Assembly: GCF_057098645.1 (NCBI RefSeq)
Contig: NZ_CM169472.1
DNA length: 64,000 bases
Direction: 5' to 3' (one strand)
Shown: positions 12,292 through 45,479 of the stretch, one piece after another
How positions within the stretch are numbered: the first letter of the stretch is position 1
Layout: each line of letters begins with the position of its first letter
Made by a program: the position numbers and the translations under genes
Notes under the pieces: generated by a model
The model's database searches: none
The model's input: only the letters and a program-made list of their open reading frames with translations
What the model was told of the DNA's origin: nothing

Positions 12292-12721
12292 TGCCGTCAC
12301 GGTGCTGAAAACCAGCCCCGAGATGCTGCGGATATTCGTGGATAACGGGAGTATTGCCTCCACACTGGCGACGTCACTGTCATTCGAAAAGCGTTACACG
12401 CTCAATGTCATTGTGACCGATTTTACCGATGATTTTGACCTGCTCATCGTGCCGGTGCTGGCGTGGCTGCGGGAAAATCAGCCCGACATCATGACCACCG
12501 ACGAAGGTCAGAAAAAGGGCTTCACGTTTTATGCAGACATCAACAATGACAGCAGCTTTGATATCAGCATCAGCCTGATGCTGACCGAGCGCACGCTGGT
12601 CAGTGAGGTGGACGGCGCACTGCATGTGAAGAATATCCCGGAACCCCCGCCGCCGGAGCCGGTCACCCGCCCGATGGAGCTGTATATCAATGGCGAACTG
12701 GTGAGCAAGTGGGATGAATGA
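12254..12721 (+). CDS. R: tail completion protein (P2 gpR-like)
   Basis: 155-aa ORF, same length as P2 R; synteny. Confidence 0.88.
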   Translation: MLKPDSLRRALTDAVTVLKTSPEMLRIFVDNGSIASTLATSLSFEKRYTLNVIVTDFTDDFDLLIVPVLAWLRENQPDIMTTDEGQKKGFTFYADINNDSSFDISISLMLTERTLVSEVDGALHVKNIPEPPPPEPVTRPMELYINGELVSKWDE

Positions 12722-13163
12722 GTTTAAGCGTTTTGAAGACCGGCTGACCGGAATGATTGAGTCGCTGTCACCGTCAGGGCGTCGGCGACTGGCGGTAGAT
12801 ATTGCGAAGAAACTGCGCCAGCGCCAGCAGCAGCGAATTAAATTACAAAAAGGCCCGGATGGTACGCCGTATGTACCGAGAAAAAACCAACCAGTGCGAA
12901 ATAAGAAAGGCCGGATAAAGCGGGAAATGTTTGTGAAATTACGCACTAACCGGTTTATGAAAGCAACAGCTAGCGAGAGTGCGGCGGTGGTGGAGTTTAC
13001 TGGTAAGGTTGAGTGTATTGCGAGAGTACATCAATTTGGGTTGGCTGATAAGCCTAGTTACAACAGTAAGGCTGTGGTTTATCCTGTTCGTATACTTATG
13101 GGAATCTCAGAGCGTGATACGAAATTTGTTGAAGAAGTTATTATTCGCTACCTATCTCATTAG
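12714..13163 (+). CDS. S: tail completion protein (P2 gpS-like); 3' two-thirds is AT-rich and looks mosaic
   Basis: 149-aa ORF starting MNEFKRFEDRLTG; synteny; composition shift near 12830. Confidence 0.85.
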   Translation: MNEFKRFEDRLTGMIESLSPSGRRRLAVDIAKKLRQRQQQRIKLQKGPDGTPYVPRKNQPVRNKKGRIKREMFVKLRTNRFMKATASESAAVVEFTGKVECIARVHQFGLADKPSYNSKAVVYPVRILMGISERDTKFVEEVIIRYLSH

Positions 13164-13213
13164 GGACGATGAAAATATAGTTTCATCAGCTATATTCTAG
13201 TATATAAAATACT

Positions 13214-13238
13214 AAGGCTACACTAGCCGTGTAGCCTT
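13214..13238. terminator. bidirectional intrinsic terminator between convergent S and the cargo NTPase gene
   Basis: perfect 10-bp stem AAGGCTACAC / GTGTAGCCTT with 5-nt loop, flanked by A/T-rich runs on both sides. Confidence 0.6.
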
Positions 13239-13263
13239 AGTATATGTTTGGGATATTATATAA

Positions 13264-14508
13264 CTAAATCCAGCGAAGGTAGAATAGTAAGTAAGGATCT
13301 CTGATGTCTAATACATCGCTTTCTTGATCCCACTCGATAATACTGCTATTTGCAGCATCGTTGGCAATAGCAGTTGAGTGCTGACATGCACTGGTTATAC
13401 TAGAACCGCTTGGGCTATCGCCATGACATAACGAGGTCACTCGAGATACTAAGTCAGAATAACGAAATGTCAGCGTCGGAGGATTAGAAGCAATGGCTTT
13501 TAATAAAAAGACATAAACATCGCCTTGCCAGCCATCTTTTGATATATATGATTTTCTATCAGAACCACGCACTTTAGGTCCTTCGCGCATTTTATCCACA
13601 ATCGTGCTGTAATCTGCTGACTGAAGTGTACGTTTGCACACTCTTTGCAATGTGGCAATATCTTTTTGATATTTTATTGAAGTATCAGAAGTCTCTCTGA
13701 CATTCATTTCAAAACAAGAGTTTAAGCATAAATATTGCATTAGTTGTGGTGAGCCTGCGGACTCTTTTACTAACTCACTTATAACTTCATCAGAGGCATC
13801 TATATTGAGTAGTTTGAATCCTTTCTGAGCAATAATTTTTAAGGTTGATTCATCCCAATAATCAAAATCAATATTAAATATCCGGCCTCGTAAGTCAGAG
13901 TTACCCCGAAGAACATCATCAGAATGATATGGCACTGATGCACAAATAAATTTGCAGCCATTAGCTATGGCATCTTTTATTTGTCGTGATAGTTCGGCTT
14001 GAGCTTCTTTAGCAATATAGTGAAAATCATCGATAAAGATAACATAATCTGTGTTTGCGATTTCTCGCTTCATTAGTTGAAAGAGATCTATCGCAAATGA
14101 TTCTGAGGTTTGATCTGCTGTACTATAACCAGCGGATGCAGACCCTTTAAGACTACCTTTTGCTAAAATTACACCAGCTTGGGCAGATAATTCTCCTGTA
14201 CTTGAAAATGATGAGGTGCCAGTTTTACTTTGAACTTGGGTTACTGGTACACCAAGTATGTCGAAAACGCGCTTCCATAAATCATTAGCAGATTGAACCC
14301 CTGCTCCAGTTACTTCGATTAGCCTCTGGGTTCCAAGTACTTTCTTAACAAAGACAGTTTTTCCTGATTTTGATGGGCCAGAGATAGAAATCAGCATGGT
14401 GCCCATCTCAAGTGTATCGATTAACTGTTGCTGTTTAGATACTAGGTGATCCTCAACCAGTGTGTGGTTGGGATAACCGCCTGGGATAAAAACCTCTGTC
14501 GCCTTCAT
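13264..14508 (-). CDS. hypothetical P-loop NTPase; AT-rich cargo gene between S and V; candidate anti-phage defence ATPase
   Basis: 414-aa ORF; Walker A GPSKSGKT (aa 44-51, nt 14356..14379); Walker B YVIFIDD (aa 155-161); Ser/Thr/Gly-rich insert between them; opposite strand and lower GC than the phage backbone. Confidence 0.8.
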   Translation of the reverse strand: MKATEVFIPGGYPNHTLVEDHLVSKQQQLIDTLEMGTMLISISGPSKSGKTVFVKKVLGTQRLIEVTGAGVQSANDLWKRVFDILGVPVTQVQSKTGTSSFSSTGELSAQAGVILAKGSLKGSASAGYSTADQTSESFAIDLFQLMKREIANTDYVIFIDDFHYIAKEAQAELSRQIKDAIANGCKFICASVPYHSDDVLRGNSDLRGRIFNIDFDYWDESTLKIIAQKGFKLLNIDASDEVISELVKESAGSPQLMQYLCLNSCFEMNVRETSDTSIKYQKDIATLQRVCKRTLQSADYSTIVDKMREGPKVRGSDRKSYISKDGWQGDVYVFLLKAIASNPPTLTFRYSDLVSRVTSLCHGDSPSGSSITSACQHSTAIANDAANSSIIEWDQESDVLDIRDPYLLFYLRWI

Positions 14509-40096: not shown

Positions 40097-40780
40097 ATGA
40101 CGGCAATTGCCCCGGTTATTACCATTGATGGCCCAAGCGGTGCAGGGAAAGGCACCTTGTGTAAGGCTATGGCGGAAGCGTTGCAATGGCATCTGCTGGA
40201 TTCGGGTGCAATTTATCGCGTACTGGCATTGGCGGCATTACATCACCATGTTGATGTTGCGTCGGAAGACGCGCTGGTGCCGCTGGCATCCCATCTGGAT
40301 GTACGTTTTGTGTCAACCAATGGCAATCTGGAAGTGATCCTCGAAGGGGAAGATGTCAGCGGCGAAATTCGTACTCAGGAAGTGGCGAATGCAGCTTCAC
40401 AAGTCGCGGCATTCCCACGCGTTCGTGAAGCATTATTGCGTCGCCAACGCGCGTTTCGCGAATTACCAGGCCTGATTGCCGATGGCCGCGACATGGGAAC
40501 GGTGGTATTCCCTGATGCGCCAGTGAAAATTTTCCTTGACGCCTCCTCGGAAGAACGTGCGCATCGCCGCATGCTACAGTTGCAGGAGAAGGGCTTTAGT
40601 GTTAACTTTGAGCGCCTTTTGGCCGAGATCAAAGAACGCGACGACCGCGATCGTAACCGAGCGGTAGCGCCACTGGTTCCGGCAGCCGATGCTTTAGTGT
40701 TGGATTCCACCACCTTAAGCATTGAGCAAGTGATTGAAAAAGCGCTACAATACGCGCGCCAGAAATTGGCTCTCGCATAA
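40097..40780 (+). CDS. cmk: cytidylate kinase
   Basis: 227-aa ORF with P-loop GPSGAGKGT. Confidence 0.95.
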
Positions 40781-40890
40781 GCGACCGAATTTGCAGTACC
40801 CCCGTTGCAATGGAATGACAGCGGGTATGTTAAACAACCCCATCCGGCATGGAGCCAGGTGGACGTTAAATATAAACCTGAAGATTAAAC

Positions 40891-42564
40891 ATGACTGAAT
40901 CTTTTGCTCAACTCTTTGAAGAGTCCTTAAAAGAAATCGAAACCCGCCCGGGTTCTATCGTTCGTGGCGTTGTTGTTGCTATCGACAAAGACGTAGTACT
41001 GGTTGACGCTGGTCTGAAATCTGAGTCCGCCATCCCGGCTGAGCAGTTCAAAAACGCCCAGGGCGAGCTGGAAATCCAGGTAGGTGACGAAGTTGACGTT
41101 GCTCTGGACGCAGTAGAAGACGGCTTCGGTGAAACTCTGCTGTCCCGTGAGAAAGCTAAACGTCACGAAGCCTGGATCACGCTGGAAAAAGCTTACGAAG
41201 ATGCTGAAACTGTTACCGGTGTTATCAACGGCAAAGTTAAGGGCGGCTTCACTGTTGAGCTGAACGGTATTCGTGCGTTCCTGCCAGGTTCTCTGGTAGA
41301 CGTTCGTCCGGTGCGTGACACTCTGCACCTGGAAGGCAAAGAGCTTGAATTCAAAGTAATCAAGCTGGATCAGAAGCGCAACAACGTTGTTGTTTCTCGT
41401 CGTGCCGTTATCGAATCCGAAAACAGCGCAGAGCGCGATCAGCTGCTGGAAAACCTGCAGGAAGGCATGGAAGTTAAAGGTATCGTTAAGAACCTCACTG
41501 ACTACGGTGCATTCGTTGATCTGGGCGGCGTTGACGGCCTGCTGCACATCACTGACATGGCCTGGAAACGCGTTAAGCATCCGAGCGAAATCGTCAACGT
41601 GGGCGACGAAATCACTGTTAAAGTGCTGAAGTTCGACCGCGAACGTACCCGTGTATCCCTGGGCCTGAAACAGCTGGGCGAAGATCCGTGGGTAGCTATC
41701 GCTAAACGTTATCCGGAAGGTACCAAACTGACTGGTCGCGTGACCAACCTGACCGACTACGGCTGCTTCGTTGAAATCGAAGAAGGCGTTGAAGGCCTGG
41801 TACACGTTTCCGAAATGGATTGGACCAACAAAAACATCCACCCGTCCAAAGTTGTTAACGTTGGCGATGTAGTGGAAGTTATGGTTCTGGATATCGACGA
41901 AGAACGTCGTCGTATCTCCCTGGGTCTGAAACAGTGCAAAGCTAACCCGTGGCAGCAGTTCGCGGAAACCCACAACAAGGGCGACCGTGTTGAAGGTAAA
42001 ATCAAGTCTATCACTGACTTCGGTATCTTCATCGGCCTGGACGGCGGCATCGACGGCCTGGTTCACCTGTCTGACATCTCCTGGAACGTTGCAGGCGAAG
42101 AAGCAGTTCGTGAATACAAAAAAGGCGACGAAATCGCTGCAGTTGTTCTGCAGGTTGACGCAGAACGTGAACGTATCTCCCTGGGCGTTAAACAGCTCGC
42201 AGAAGATCCGTTCAACAACTGGGTTGCTCTGAACAAGAAAGGCGCTATCGTAACCGGTAAAGTGACTGCAGTTGACGCTAAAGGCGCAACCGTAGAACTG
42301 GCTGATGGCGTTGAAGGTTACCTGCGTGCTTCTGAAGCATCCCGTGACCGCGTTGAAGACGCTACCCTGGTTCTGAGCGTTGGCGACGAAGTTGAAGCTA
42401 AATTCACCGGCGTTGATCGTAAAAACCGCGCAATCAGCCTGTCTGTACGTGCGAAAGACGAAGCTGACGAGAAAGATGCAATCGCAACTGTTAACAAACA
42501 GGAAGATGCAAACTTCTCCAACAACGCAATGGCTGAAGCTTTCAAAGCAGCTAAAGGCGAGTAA
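40891..42564 (+). CDS. rpsA: 30S ribosomal protein S1
   Basis: 557-aa ORF with repeated S1 domains; highly biased codon usage. Confidence 0.97.
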
Positions 42565-42574
42565 TTCTCTGACT

Positions 42575-42600
42575 CTTCGGGATTTTTATTCCGAAGTTTG
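42575..42600 (+). terminator. rpsA terminator-like hairpin
   Basis: CTTCGGGA-TTTTTA-TTCCGAAG hairpin followed by a T-rich stretch. Confidence 0.5.
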
Positions 42601-42723
42601 TTGAGTTTACTTGACAGATTGCAGGTTTCGTCCTGTAATCAAGCACTAAGGGCGGCTACGGCCGCCCTTAATCAATGCAGCAACAGCAGCCGCTTAATTT
42701 GCCTTTAAGGAACCGGAGGAATC

Positions 42724-43008
42724 ATGACCAAGTCAGAATTGATAGAAAGACTTGCCACCCAGCAATCGCACATTCCCGCCAAGACGGTTGAAGATGCAGT
42801 AAAAGAGATGCTGGAGCATATGGCCTCGACTCTTGCGCAGGGCGAGCGTATTGAAATCCGCGGTTTCGGCAGTTTCTCTTTGCACTACCGCGCACCACGT
42901 ACCGGACGTAATCCGAAGACTGGCGATAAAGTAGAACTGGAAGGAAAATACGTTCCTCACTTTAAACCTGGTAAAGAACTGCGCGATCGCGCCAATATTT
43001 ACGGTTAA
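42724..43008 (+). CDS. ihfB: integration host factor beta subunit
   Basis: 94-aa ORF starting [11 protein letters not shown]. Confidence 0.95.
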
Positions 43009-43034
43009 GTTTTTACTCAAACTTGAACGCGAGA

Positions 43035-43058
43035 AAAGCACCTGTCGGGTGCTTTTTT
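43035..43058 (+). terminator. ihfB intrinsic terminator
   Basis: AAAGCACC-TGTCG-GGTGCTTT hairpin followed by TTTT. Confidence 0.75.
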
Positions 43059-43214
43059 CATTTCTCTAATCAGGAGCTGGAAGCTGCCTCGCAGAGTTTT
43101 GAGCAGTTTTCACCCTTTCGTTAAATTCTTCTGAATGTGCCTCGGGGAACGCAAAATTCCCACCAGACAACCGCTCAACAAAGTTGCACACTTTCCATAA
43201 ACAGGGAGGGGTGC

Positions 43215-45479
43215 ATGAAAATAACGACAGTCGGCGTATGCATAATTTGCGGAATTTTTCCGTTGCTGATTTTGCCCCAATTGCCTGGGACATTAACCCT
43301 TGCGTTTCTGACTCTCTTCGCCTGCGTACTGGCATTTATCCCTGTTAAAACCGTCCGTTATATCGCGCTGACGTTGCTGTTTTTCGTTTGGGGCATATTA
43401 TCAGCAAAGCAAATTTTGTGGGCAGGAGAAACCTTAACTGGCGCGACGCAGGATGCAATTGTTGAGATCACTGCTACTGACGGCATGACCACTCATTATG
43501 GTCAAATTACTTATCTACAAGGTCGACGTATATTCCCTGCGCCAGGCCTTGTGCTGTATGGCGAATATCTTCCGCAAGCGGTTTGTGCCGGACAACTGTG
43601 GTCAATGAAACTCAAAGTTCGTGCCGTTCATGGTCAACTTAATGATGGCGGCTTTGATAGCCAGCGTTATGCCATTGCCCTGCATCAGCCGCTCACCGGC
43701 CGCTTTCTGCAGGCAAGTGTTATTGAACCGAATTGTAGCCTGCGTGCACAGTATCTGGCGTCACTACAAACAACGCTGCAACCCTATCCGTGGAATGCGG
43801 TTATTCTTGGTTTAGGTATGGGGGAACGGTTATCCGTCCCTAAAGAAATCAAAAATATCATGCGTGATACTGGAACGGCGCATTTAATGGCGATATCGGG
43901 ATTGCACATCGCTTTTGCGGCGTTGCTGGCTGCCGGACTCATTCGCAGTGGACAAATTTTTCTGCCTGGGCGCTGGATCCACTGGCAAATGCCATTAATT
44001 GGCGGAATCTGCTGTGCTGCTTTTTATGCCTGGCTGACGGGAATGCAACCTCCTGCATTGCGTACCGTTGTGGCGCTTGCTACGTGGGGAATGCTTAAGT
44101 TAAGTGGGCGACAGTGGAGTGGCTGGGATGTATGGATATGTTGTCTGGCGGCAATTTTGCTGATGGATCCTGTTGCCATTCTCTCGCAAAGTTTATGGCT
44201 CTCTGCCGCTGCGGTCGCGGCATTGATATTTTGGTATCAGTGGTTTCCCTGTCCTGAGTGGCAACTGCCGCCGGTATTGCGTGCAGTTGTTTCCCTCATC
44301 CATCTGCAACTGGGAATCACACTTCTGCTTATGCCCGTGCAAATCGTCATATTTCATGGCATTAGCCTGACCTCGTTTATTGCAAATCTATTAGCTATTC
44401 CCTTGGTGACATTTATCACGGTTCCGTTGATCCTCGCCGCGATGGTTGTGCATTTAAGCGGGCCGTTAATCCTGGAGCAAGGGTTATGGTTTCTTGCCGA
44501 CCGGTCTTTGGCTTTACTTTTCTGGGGGTTAAAGAGTTTGCCAGAAGGGTGGATCAACATTGCTGAACGTTGGCAATGGCTATCATTTTCCCCATGGTTC
44601 TTACTGGTGGTATGGCGATTAAACGCCTGGCGAACGTTGCCAGCAATGTGTGTGGCTGTAGGCTTGCTGATGTGCTGGCCGCTGTGGCAAAAACCTCGAC
44701 CTGACGAGTGGCAAGTGTACATGCTTGATGTCGGGCAAGGGCTGGCAATGGTGATAGCCAGAAACGGCAAAGCGATTCTCTATGACACGGGACTGGCCTG
44801 GCCTGAAGGGGATAGTGGGCAACAACTGATTATCCCCTGGCTCCACTGGCATAATCTTGAACCGGAAGGCGTTATTCTGAGTCATGAACATCTGGATCAC
44901 CGGGGAGGGCTGGACTCAATATTGCACACATGGCCGATGTTATGGATCAGAAGTCCGTTAAACTGGGAACATCATCAGCCCTGTGTGCGTGGCGAAGCAT
45001 GGCAATGGCAAGGATTGCGTTTCAGCGTGCACTGGCCTTTACAAGCTAGCAACGATAAAGGAAATAACCATTCCTGTGTGGTTAAGGTTGATGACGGGAC
45101 GAATAGCATTCTTCTAACCGGTGATATTGAAGTCCCCGCTGAACAAAAGATGCTAAGCCGTTACTGGCAGCAAGTGCAGGCAACATTGCTTCAGGTACCT
45201 CACCATGGCAGTAATACCTCATCATCGTTGCCATTAATTCAGCGAGTGAATGGAAAAGTGGCACTCGCATCGGCATCGCGCTATAACGCATGGCGACTGC
45301 CCTCTAACAAAGTTAAGCATCGCTATCAACAACAGGGTTATACGTGGCTTGATACTCCTCATCAGGGGCAAGTAACGGTCGATTTTTCAGCGCAAGGCTG
45401 GCGGATTAGCAGCCTCAGGGAGCAAATTTTACCTCGTTGGTATCATCAGTGGTTTGGCGTGCCAGTGGATAACGGGTAG
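43215..45479 (+). CDS. ycaI: ComEC/Rec2-family inner membrane protein YcaI
   Basis: polytopic N-terminus plus C-terminal metallo-beta-lactamase-like HxHxDH motif; start trimmed from ORF-track 43137. Confidence 0.88.
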   Translation: MKITTVGVCIICGIFPLLILPQLPGTLTLAFLTLFACVLAFIPVKTVRYIALTLLFFVWGILSAKQILWAGETLTGATQDAIVEITATDGMTTHYGQITYLQGRRIFPAPGLVLYGEYLPQAVCAGQLWSMKLKVRAVHGQLNDGGFDSQRYAIALHQPLTGRFLQASVIEPNCSLRAQYLASLQTTLQPYPWNAVILGLGMGERLSVPKEIKNIMRDTGTAHLMAISGLHIAFAALLAAGLIRSGQIFLPGRWIHWQMPLIGGICCAAFYAWLTGMQPPALRTVVALATWGMLKLSGRQWSGWDVWICCLAAILLMDPVAILSQSLWLSAAAVAALIFWYQWFPCPEWQLPPVLRAVVSLIHLQLGITLLLMPVQIVIFHGISLTSFIANLLAIPLVTFITVPLILAAMVVHLSGPLILEQGLWFLADRSLALLFWGLKSLPEGWINIAERWQWLSFSPWFLLVVWRLNAWRTLPAMCVAVGLLMCWPLWQKPRPDEWQVYMLDVGQGLAMVIARNGKAILYDTGLAWPEGDSGQQLIIPWLHWHNLEPEGVILSHEHLDHRGGLDSILHTWPMLWIRSPLNWEHHQPCVRGEAWQWQGLRFSVHWPLQASNDKGNNHSCVVKVDDGTNSILLTGDIEVPAEQKMLSRYWQQVQATLLQVPHHGSNTSSSLPLIQRVNGKVALASASRYNAWRLPSNKVKHRYQQQGYTWLDTPHQGQVTVDFSAQGWRISSLREQILPRWYHQWFGVPVDNG

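What the first reader, a model, noticed from the sequence alone, without database searches (positions are those of the whole stretch)
42646..42668. Perfect GC-rich hairpin in the rpsA-ihfB intergenic region
AAGGGCGGC-TACG-GCCGCCCTT forms a 9-bp perfect stem without a following T-run, so it is not a classical terminator. It lies between the rpsA terminator-like hairpin and the ihfB start and could be a processing or regulatory structure; it is most likely conserved host sequence.
Basis: seen in the sequence. Interest (0 to 1): 0.15.

Follow-up and report, generated by a model that had tools for sequence, protein, structure and literature searches.

The report
rpsA transcript-end hairpin, ihfB mRNA start
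The hairpin is real, conserved E. coli sequence: published maps place the end of most ribosomal protein S1 (rpsA) transcripts at it and the start of the ihfB messenger on its first stem base, so it is an ordinary if neatly dual-used RNA stem-loop.

Summary
The hairpin exists. The quoted 22-mer lies at 42648-42669, not 42646-42668. In E. coli it extends to a perfect 10-bp stem (42647-42670) with a UACG loop closed by C-G, and no T-run follows. It is single-copy, present at ≥95% identity over a 38-nt query in 5425 of 5426 complete E. coli genomes, not a REP element and not an Rfam family.

Published maps explain it. Term-seq puts a strong, Rho-independent 3' end at window 42673, 3 nt past the stem. 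Full-length capped reads show rpsA transcripts ending there: about 60-70% stop and the rest read into ihfB. No 3' end is reported at the upstream hairpin with the T-run. Cappable-seq puts a strong ihfB start at 42648, the first A of the stem.

One stem-loop is therefore the 3' terminal hairpin of rpsA mRNA, acting as a leaky terminator or exonuclease stop, and the 5'-terminal stem-loop of monocistronic ihfB mRNA. The second role probably shields that mRNA from RppH/RNase E decay; this is inferred.

A hairpin at this position is kept across gammaproteobacteria with compensatory changes. The core is invariant in 12 Enterobacteriaceae genera.

Low interest; known kinds of element.

The parts
40891..42564 (+). 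rpsA (ribosomal protein S1) coding sequence; its transcripts end at the hairpin
   Evidence: ORF; annotated rpsA in E. coli genomes
42575..42596 (+). H1: weaker hairpin (9 pairs including one G-U) followed by TTTGTT. It looks like a terminator, but no RNA 3' end is reported here
   Evidence: Terminator scan. No 3' end is listed between MG1655 961969 and 963777 in Term-seq; the rpsA-initiated reads retrieved from SMRT-Cappable-seq end at 963777
42611..42616 (+). TTGACA, the likely -35 element of the ihfB promoter
   Evidence: Sequence. ACTTGACAG is conserved in 10 Enterobacteriaceae genera. It lies 32-37 nt upstream of the mapped start
42618..42641 (+). H2: inverted repeat GATTGCAGG/CCTGTAATC in the promoter spacer and -10 region. 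It folds as a hairpin in read-through rpsA RNA
   Evidence: Fold; pair counts (84.8% of cells paired, G-U wobbles, weak evidence)
42634..42642 (+). TGTAATCAA, the -10 region of the ihfB promoter. The exact hexamer is ambiguous: TGTAAT with a 17-nt spacer, or TAATCA
   Evidence: CCTGTAATC is invariant in 10 genera. Its position relative to the start at 42648 fits. The strict consensus scan does not call it
42648..42648 (+). Main ihfB transcription start (A), the first base of the 9-bp stem
   Evidence: Cappable-seq start at U00096.2 962975, score 364.9, log2 enrichment 7.64. Coordinate registration checked. SMRT-Cappable-seq start 963751, running to 964164. Checked against MG1655 sequence
42647..42670 (+). 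The hairpin of the finding (H3): UAAGGGCGGC-UACG-GCCGCCCUUA. The conserved core is 42648-42669
42673..42673 (+). Major RNA 3' end of rpsA transcripts (C of ...GCCGCCCUUAAUC), 51 nt upstream of the ihfB ATG
   Evidence: Term-seq 963777, read counts 9925 and 5221 in two conditions, Rho score 1.34 'No', intrinsic terminator score 14.4. SMRT-Cappable-seq transcript end at 963777 for reads starting at 961720 and 961861. Coordinate checked
42695..42695 (+). Second, weaker Cappable-seq start (T) with no recognisable promoter upstream; unexplained
   Evidence: U00096.2 963022, score 111.7
42715..42719 (+). GGAGG Shine-Dalgarno sequence of ihfB
   Evidence: Sequence; ACCGGAGGAA is invariant
42724..43008 (+). 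ihfB (integration host factor beta) coding sequence
43031..43059 (+). Canonical ihfB intrinsic terminator (hairpin plus T6)
   Evidence: Term-seq 3' end at 964165; SMRT transcript end at 964164

Best explanation
The hairpin is one RNA stem-loop used by two transcripts.

(1) Transcripts from the cmk and rpsA promoters. The very stable G+C-rich, UNCG-capped stem forms about 85 nt after the rpsA stop codon and defines the mature 3' end of rpsA mRNA at window 42673. About 60-70% of RNAs that reach it end there and 30-40% continue into ihfB. It therefore behaves as a leaky, Rho-independent terminator and as a 3' protective hairpin, despite its poor U-tract. The 3' end and the read-through fraction are shown by published data. 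Whether the end arises by true termination or by exonuclease trimming back to the stem is not settled.

(2) The ihfB promoter (TTGACA ... TGTAATCAA). It fires at A42648, the first base of the stem. The monocistronic ihfB mRNA therefore begins with a fully paired 5'-terminal stem-loop with no unpaired 5' nucleotides, followed by a 54-nt leader. Because RppH needs at least two unpaired 5' nucleotides, and RNase E's 5'-end sensing needs a single-stranded monophosphorylated end, this should block 5'-end-dependent decay and lengthen the ihfB mRNA lifetime. The position is shown; the stabilising effect is inferred.

Evolution. The hairpin after rpsA is the ancestral element. The promoter module in front of it was added in the Escherichia/Citrobacter/Kluyvera group of Enterobacteriaceae.
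For: Structure: perfect 9-10 bp stem, -20.1 kcal/mol, present in the minimum-energy and centroid folds.

3' end: Term-seq 963777 = window 42673. Read counts (9925 and 5221) are equal to or higher than those at the canonical ihfB terminator (8916 and 2842). Rho score 1.34 'No'; intrinsic score 14.4. No 3' end is listed at H1.

Full-length 5'-triphosphate reads: 961720 to 963777 has 109 reads ending, 67 passing through and 9 ending within 50 bp downstream. 961861 to 963777 has 38 ending and 15 passing. Read-through rpsA-ihfB operon variants are also listed.

Transcription start: Cappable-seq 962975 (U00096.2) = window 42648, score 364.9, among the three strongest of the 81 plus-strand starts listed for about 20 kb (956802 scores 392.1; the main rpsA start scores 318.6). 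Registration is verified by 62 of 81 purines at +1 and 58 of 81 pyrimidines at -1. An SMRT read class runs 963751 to 964164.

RppH requirement for at least 2 unpaired 5' nucleotides: PMC8565310.

Salmonella ORF-swap: mRNA half-life follows the ihfB untranslated regions. At 7 h, native ihfB is 4.93 min and the ihfB ORF with ihfA UTRs is 2.64 min; native ihfA is 2.19 min and the ihfA ORF with ihfB UTRs is 3.38 min.

Conservation: present at ≥95% identity over a 38-nt query in 5425 of 5426 E. coli genomes, single copy. The one variant examined changes the loop only. The promoter plus hairpin is conserved in 10 genera and the hairpin core is invariant in 12. A hairpin sits between rpsA and ihfB in essentially all 80 gammaproteobacterial loci, mostly capped by UNCG or GNRA loops. 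All 8 of 8 pairs show compensatory changes among 24 distinct Enterobacterales hairpins. Intergenic-region fold z-scores have a median of -3.0, and 59 of 75 are below -2. In Vibrio, Aeromonas and Pseudoalteromonas the corresponding hairpin carries a normal U-run.
Against: The U-tract is poor (UUAAUCAAU) and the simple terminator scan does not call the site.

The 3' end is only 3-4 nt beyond the stem base, 6 nt beyond the last G-C pair. That fits exonuclease trimming at least as well as termination.

Neither sequencing data set separates termination from processing.

The stabilising role of the 5' stem-loop has not been tested for ihfB. The Salmonella swap exchanged both untranslated regions, the effects are modest, and I did not check the Salmonella sequence itself.

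The -10 element is non-canonical (TGTAAT has G at -11; TAATCA lacks T at -7). The start rests on two data sets from one laboratory, plus the older literature's statement that ihfB has its own promoter.

The covariation count is partly circular, because the sequences were picked as the best hairpin of each intergenic region.

Short-intergenic-region species show no consensus promoter in front of the hairpin. The 5' role therefore cannot explain the deep conservation.
Confidence: 0.7

Rival explanations
1. There is no termination. RNA polymerase reads through. The 3' end at 42673 is a decay or processing intermediate, made when 3'-to-5' exonucleases (PNPase, RNase II, RNase R) chew back from downstream cleavage or termination sites and stall at the very stable UNCG-capped stem. 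The hairpin is then purely a 3' stabiliser for rpsA mRNA, and still the 5' stem-loop of ihfB mRNA.
For: The U-tract is poor and the scan does not call the site. The 3' end lies only 3-4 nt from the stem base. In several other Enterobacterales families the tail is not U-rich at all. Term-seq and SMRT-Cappable-seq report steady-state 3' ends, not nascent termination.
Against: The published intrinsic-terminator score is 14.4 against a threshold of 3. Close relatives have a better tail, CCCUUGUUUAA. More distant gammaproteobacteria have a canonical U-run on the equivalent hairpin. A large share of capped full-length reads end exactly here, with few ending in the next 50 nt (9 against 109).
Confidence: 0.25
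2. The inverted repeat works as double-stranded DNA: a palindromic operator at +1 to +22 of the ihfB promoter, bound by a dimeric regulator.
For: It is a perfect 10-bp palindrome overlapping the transcription start. The stem sequence is invariant within Enterobacteriaceae. ihfB is reported to be growth-phase and auto-regulated (papers cited).
Against: Outside Enterobacteriaceae the sequence changes completely while pairing is kept, including G-U pairs that would be mismatches in DNA. Loops are stable RNA tetraloops of the UNCG or GNRA type. The hairpin is kept in species with a 60-nt intergenic region and no promoter in front. An RNA 3' end maps at its base. No regulator with such a G+C-rich site is known to me.
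Confidence: 0.04
3. It is a REP/BIME-type dispersed repeat or another mobile palindromic element that landed between rpsA and ihfB.
For: It is a G+C-rich palindrome in an intergenic region after a highly expressed gene, as REP elements often are.
Against: It occurs at one place per genome in 5425 genomes, even with an 11-base word search at E-value up to 10. There is no other copy in the window within 3 mismatches. There is no match to the REP consensus anywhere in the window. It is orthologous and syntenic across Enterobacterales.
Confidence: 0.01

Closest known systems
Intrinsic (Rho-independent) terminators acting as leaky intercistronic attenuators. Examples recalled from memory are the terminators that set differential expression inside ribosomal-protein and rpsU-dnaG-rpoD type operons.
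   Same: A G+C-rich stem-loop with RNA 3' ends a few nucleotides downstream. It is insensitive to the Rho inhibitor. It shows partial read-through (about 30-40%) into the next gene. The equivalent hairpin in Vibrio, Aeromonas and Pseudoalteromonas has a normal U-run.
   Different: The E. coli tail UUAAUCAAU is not a U-tract. The simple scan does not call it, and the end is unusually close to the stem. Termination by pure RNA polymerase has not been shown, so the end may be produced or refined by exonucleases.
5'-terminal stabilising stem-loops of E. coli mRNAs, with the ompA 5' UTR hairpin as the paradigm. The Belasco laboratory work is cited from memory: Emory, Bouvet and Belasco 1992. The RppH requirement is quoted in PMC8565310.
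   Same: The stem-loop starts at the very 5' end of the primary transcript, here with 0 unpaired nucleotides. The stem is very stable and the leader downstream is unstructured. In Salmonella, half-life tracks with the ihfB untranslated regions.
   Different: The stabilising effect has not been tested for ihfB. The same hairpin is also the 3' end of the upstream gene's mRNA, which is not the case for ompA. The 5' role appears confined to the clade that carries the TTGACA...TGTAATCAA promoter.
3' stabilising hairpins and REP-type exonuclease barriers (for example the malE-malF REP; recalled from memory).
   Same: A stable stem at the 3' end of an abundant upstream cistron's mRNA inside a partly co-transcribed unit. 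It would protect the upstream segment and give differential expression.
   Different: It is single copy, has no REP consensus, and has a short stem with a tetraloop.

Membership tests
Canonical intrinsic terminator | G+C-rich stem-loop of about 5-14 bp with a short loop | tested here: met
   Perfect stem of 9-10 bp, 7 G-C pairs, 4-nt loop, -20.1 kcal/mol
Canonical intrinsic terminator | U-rich tract (at least 5 U in about 8 nt) directly after the stem | tested here: not met
   The tail is UUAAUCAAU and the scan does not call the site. A published composite score nevertheless rates it 14.4 against a threshold of 3. It is therefore not filed as a canonical terminator, only as working like a leaky one
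Canonical intrinsic terminator | RNA 3' ends map just downstream of the stem in vivo and do not depend on Rho | tested here: met
   From published data: Term-seq 963777 = window 42673, Rho score 1.34 'No'; SMRT-Cappable-seq transcript end at 963777
Canonical intrinsic terminator | Termination by purified RNA polymerase in vitro | not testable with these tools
   Needs single-round in vitro transcription
5'-terminal stabilising stem-loop (ompA type) | The stem begins within about 0-2 nt of the 5' end of the primary transcript | tested here: met
   The start at window 42648 is the first paired base
5'-terminal stabilising stem-loop (ompA type) | Removing the stem, or adding unpaired 5' nucleotides, shortens the mRNA half-life in an RppH/RNase E dependent way | not testable with these tools
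   Only indirect evidence exists: in the Salmonella ORF swap, half-lives follow the ihfB untranslated regions
REP / BIME dispersed palindromes | Many dispersed copies per genome sharing the REP consensus | tested here: not met
   One place per genome; no second copy in the window; no REP consensus match in the window
Rho-dependent terminator | Read-through rises when Rho is inhibited with bicyclomycin | tested here: not met
   Published Rho score 1.34, flagged 'No'
Any curated Rfam RNA family | Covariance-model match at or above the gathering score | tested here: not met
   The best overlap is PhrS at 16.8 bits against a gathering score of 37, E = 0.3, a chance hit on the hairpin only

The most novel reading that the evidence does not exclude
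The promoter and the terminator hairpin form one coupled module. Transcripts started at A42648 are themselves partly stopped by the hairpin they begin with, releasing a 5'-triphosphate hairpin RNA of about 26 nt (42648-42673). The fraction that escapes, and hence IhfB output and the IhfB:IhfA ratio, is tuned by growth phase, for example through sigma-S against sigma-70 holoenzyme, ppGpp or NusA. The very high Cappable-seq score (364.9) against few long reads from this start (32) would fit this. It is equally explained by the size selection of long-read libraries.
Probability: 0.1. Interest if true: 0.45.

Novelty: already known. Interest (0 to 1): 0.15.

Why it matters
Little changes for the field. 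This is core E. coli sequence, and its 3' end and 5' start are already in published genome-wide tables, although it is listed there only as an 'orphan' 3' end or a 'novelTTS' and is not discussed individually.

There are two practical points.

(1) A hairpin without a T-run can be the real transcript end while a neighbouring hairpin with a T-run is not. Sequence-only terminator calls in this operon are therefore misleading.

(2) One stem-loop that ends rpsA mRNA and caps the 5' end of ihfB mRNA gives a simple way to uncouple a very highly expressed ribosomal-protein gene from the IHF beta gene. About a third of transcripts still read through, and the ihfB-only message is made long-lived. That may contribute to the reported two-fold excess of IhfB over IhfA and the greater stability of ihfB mRNA in Salmonella (PMC8942017).

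Tried and rejected
- **Rfam scan** of 40500-43300 at E up to 10: only chance hits.
- **Consensus promoter scan:** no call in the intergenic region, because the -10 is non-canonical. No call in front of the hairpin in Mangrovibacter, Enterobacter Ag1 or Yersinia either. I therefore do not claim the 5' role outside the promoter-bearing clade.
- **REP hypothesis:** rejected on copy number and consensus.
- **Supplement searches that gave nothing:** PMC9023263 and PMC11092163 hold no text supplements. PMC4681348 has no entry at these coordinates. The Adams supplements hold no start-site table.
- **Literature not reachable or not found:** Thomason 2015 (dRNA-seq) is not held. Searches for a dedicated description of the rpsA terminator or the ihfB leader found none in the held library.
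- **Covariation inside Enterobacteriaceae:** uninformative, because the stem never varies. The wider comparison is informative but partly circular.
- **Coordinate offsets** of 776 and 778 between U00096.2 and U00096.3: rejected in favour of 777 by base composition at +1 and -1.
- **RNase III site:** considered and dropped, because the stem is too short (my own knowledge).

Full report
**Observation**

The window is E. coli chromosome. It carries cmk (40097-40780), rpsA (40891-42564), ihfB (42724-43008) and ycaI. The rpsA-ihfB spacer is identical to MG1655. Window coordinate plus 921104 gives the NC_000913.3 coordinate across this region.

A tenth pair (T42647-A42670) makes a perfect 10-bp stem with a 4-nt loop. 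The loop UACG closed by C-G is of the UNCG class (my own knowledge).

The isolated hairpin is predicted at -20.1 kcal/mol. It forms in the minimum-energy and centroid folds of the 159-nt spacer, whose fold is far better than shuffles (z = -6.2).

After the G-C stem comes UUAAUCAAU, and the terminator scan does not call the site. 'No T-run' is therefore right. Perfect hairpins of at least 9 bp are about 7-fold enriched in the window over shuffles (10 against 1.4). The sequence has no second copy within 3 mismatches.

**What else is in the spacer**

There are three consecutive hairpins.
- H1 (42575-42596) is followed by TTTGTT and looks like a terminator.
- H2 (42618-42641) lies inside a promoter-like module: TTGACA at 42611-42616, then 17 nt, then TGTAAT at 42634-42639.
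- H3 is the finding.

**Not a repeat, not a known RNA family**

A 38-nt query around the hairpin finds one place per genome in 5425 of 5426 complete E. coli genomes, even with an 11-base word search. The 221-nt region is at least 99% identical in all of them. The one variant I examined changes only the loop, UACG to UAUG. There is no REP consensus in the window and no Rfam family.

**Experimental ends from published data**

*3' end.* The Term-seq tables of Adams et al. 2021 (PMC7815308) list a plus-strand 3' end at 963777 in two growth conditions, with read counts 9925 and 5221. The canonical ihfB terminator at 964165 has 8916 and 2842. The 963777 end is 51 nt upstream of the ihfB ATG. Its Rho score is 1.34 ('No') and its intrinsic-terminator score is 14.4, where 3 or more suggests intrinsic termination. 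No 3' end is listed between 961969 and 963777, so none at H1. Position 963777 is window 42673, the C of ...GCCGCCCUUAAUC. I checked this against the table's own flanking sequence and against MG1655.

*Full-length reads.* SMRT-Cappable-seq (Yan et al. 2018, PMC6131387) gives full-length 5'-triphosphate reads from the rpsA promoters ending at the same base.
- Start 961720: 109 reads end there, 67 pass through, and 9 end within the next 50 bp.
- Start 961861: 38 end there and 15 pass through.

Read-through rpsA-ihfB variants are also listed, along with a separate class running 963751 to 964164 that covers ihfB alone. Roughly 60-70% of rpsA transcripts that reach the hairpin therefore end at it.

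*5' start.* Cappable-seq (Ettwiller et al. 2016, PMC4782308) lists a start at U00096.2 962975 with score 364.9 and log2 enrichment 7.64. It is among the three strongest of the 81 plus-strand starts listed for about 20 kb (956802 scores 392.1; the main rpsA start scores 318.6). I fixed the coordinate conversion (+777) empirically: only that offset gives both 62 of 81 purines at +1 and 58 of 81 pyrimidines at -1. The start is window 42648, the first A of AAGGGCGGC. The ihfB primary transcript therefore begins with the hairpin and has no unpaired 5' nucleotide.

**Comparative evidence**

A scan of one genome per species returned 80 loci with ihfB, almost all with rpsA directly upstream.

Within Enterobacteriaceae, AGGGCGGC-U(A/U)(C/U)G-GCCGCCCU is invariant in 12 genera. 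In 10 of them it is preceded at fixed distance by ACTTGACAG ... CCTGTAATCAA.

In other Enterobacterales families (Yersinia, Rahnella, Hafnia, Edwardsiella, Budvicia, Erwinia, Pantoea, Pectobacterium, Brenneria, Photorhabdus, Proteus, Arsenophonus) the spacer is only 60-100 nt. It holds a single strong hairpin 0-16 nt after the rpsA stop in most of them. The sequence differs, the hairpin is usually capped by a UNCG or GNRA loop, and there is no U-run.

Among 24 distinct hairpins, all 8 core pairs show changes on both sides and 96% of cells are paired, against 38-59% when the partner is slid. This set was chosen as the best hairpin per spacer, so the count is partly circular. A test that does not depend on that choice is the whole-spacer fold z-score: the median is -3.0, and 59 of 75 spacers are below -2.

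In Vibrio, Aeromonas, Pseudoalteromonas and Colwellia the corresponding hairpin is a canonical terminator with a U-run. The hairpin after rpsA is therefore ancestral. The promoter module and H1/H2 are additions in the Escherichia/Citrobacter/Kluyvera group. No consensus promoter is found in front of the hairpin in short-spacer species.

**Mechanism**

*Shown:*
- The hairpin forms the mature 3' end of rpsA mRNA.
- About a third of transcripts read through into ihfB.
- The end does not depend on Rho.
- The ihfB promoter starts on the first stem base.

*Inferred, 3' side.* The end arises at least partly by intrinsic termination at a weak U-tract. The rival is pure exonuclease trimming back to a very stable stem. 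That rival fits the short 3-4 nt overhang and cannot be excluded with steady-state data.

*Inferred, 5' side.* The fully paired 5' end protects monocistronic ihfB mRNA. [quoted passage not shown] RNase E's 5'-end-dependent entry needs a single-stranded monophosphate end, and a 5'-terminal stem-loop is the classical ompA-type stabiliser (my own knowledge).

Salmonella data are consistent with this. ihfB mRNA is more stable than ihfA mRNA (4.93 against 2.19 min at 7 h). In the ORF-swap strain, stability follows the ihfB untranslated regions (3.38 against 2.64 min) (PMC8942017). That experiment swapped both untranslated regions, and I did not check the Salmonella sequence.

**Comparison with known kinds**

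It works like a leaky intrinsic terminator or 3' protective hairpin, and like a 5'-terminal stabilising stem-loop. It fails the U-tract criterion of a canonical terminator, so I do not file it as one. It meets the positional criterion of a 5' stabiliser, but the functional criterion is untested. REP, Rho-dependent terminator and Rfam membership are all rejected.

**Verdict**

This is a real, strongly conserved, functionally explained piece of core E. coli sequence. Both RNA ends are already in published tables, labelled 'orphan' 3' end and 'novelTTS', and neither is discussed individually. The dual use of one stem-loop is neat but belongs to known mechanisms.

Interest is low (0.15). The least ordinary reading still open is that transcripts from the ihfB promoter are themselves attenuated by the hairpin they start with, giving a regulated RNA of about 26 nt. 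I give that about 10%.

Noticed in passing
window 42695: A second Cappable-seq start (U00096.2 963022, score 111.7, log2 enrichment 7.62) lies 29 nt upstream of the ihfB ATG. It begins on a T and has no recognisable -10 or -35 upstream. It may be the 'ihfBp2' that one paper calls sigma-38-preferring; otherwise it is unexplained.
   Followed up: partly
window 42575-42596: H1 looks like a terminator (9 pairs plus TTTGTT). No RNA 3' end is reported there in Term-seq, and the rpsA-initiated reads retrieved from SMRT-Cappable-seq end at the downstream hairpin. Its sequence differs between genera while a hairpin persists at that place.
   Followed up: partly
window 42618-42641: H2 is the inverted repeat GATTGCAGG/CCTGTAATC inside the ihfB promoter spacer and -10 region. 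G-U wobbles on the sense strand in several genera hint at RNA-level pairing in read-through rpsA transcripts rather than a DNA operator. The evidence is weak.
   Followed up: partly
window 42636-42648 and 42669-42675: TAATCAA occurs on both sides of the hairpin. The first copy, AATCAAGCACTAA, is one mismatch from the IHF consensus WATCAANNNNTTR and overlaps the -10 and +1. It is a candidate site for the reported IHF autoregulation of ihfB. I judged this by eye only.
   Followed up: no
window 13209-13243: A 15-bp perfect palindrome, ATACTAAGGCTACAC-TAGCC-GTGTAGCCTTAGTAT, lies in an AT-rich gap between convergent ORFs 12714-13163 (+) and 13264-14508 (-). It is probably a bidirectional terminator. 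It is the longest perfect hairpin in the window.
   Followed up: no
window 43010-43030: Downstream of ihfB the window differs from MG1655. It has a run of 5 T instead of 6 after the stop codon, and C instead of A at 43030, at the foot of the ihfB terminator stem. MG1655 coordinates therefore shift by 1 beyond this point.
   Followed up: yes
L043, L045, L046, L048-L050 (Vibrio spp.), rpsA-ihfB spacer: Vibrio spacers are 200-235 nt. They have a canonical terminator right after rpsA, followed by a long conserved structured region (…GUGUUUGUUGGAAUUGGUAUUAC…) before ihfB. I did not examine it.
   Followed up: no
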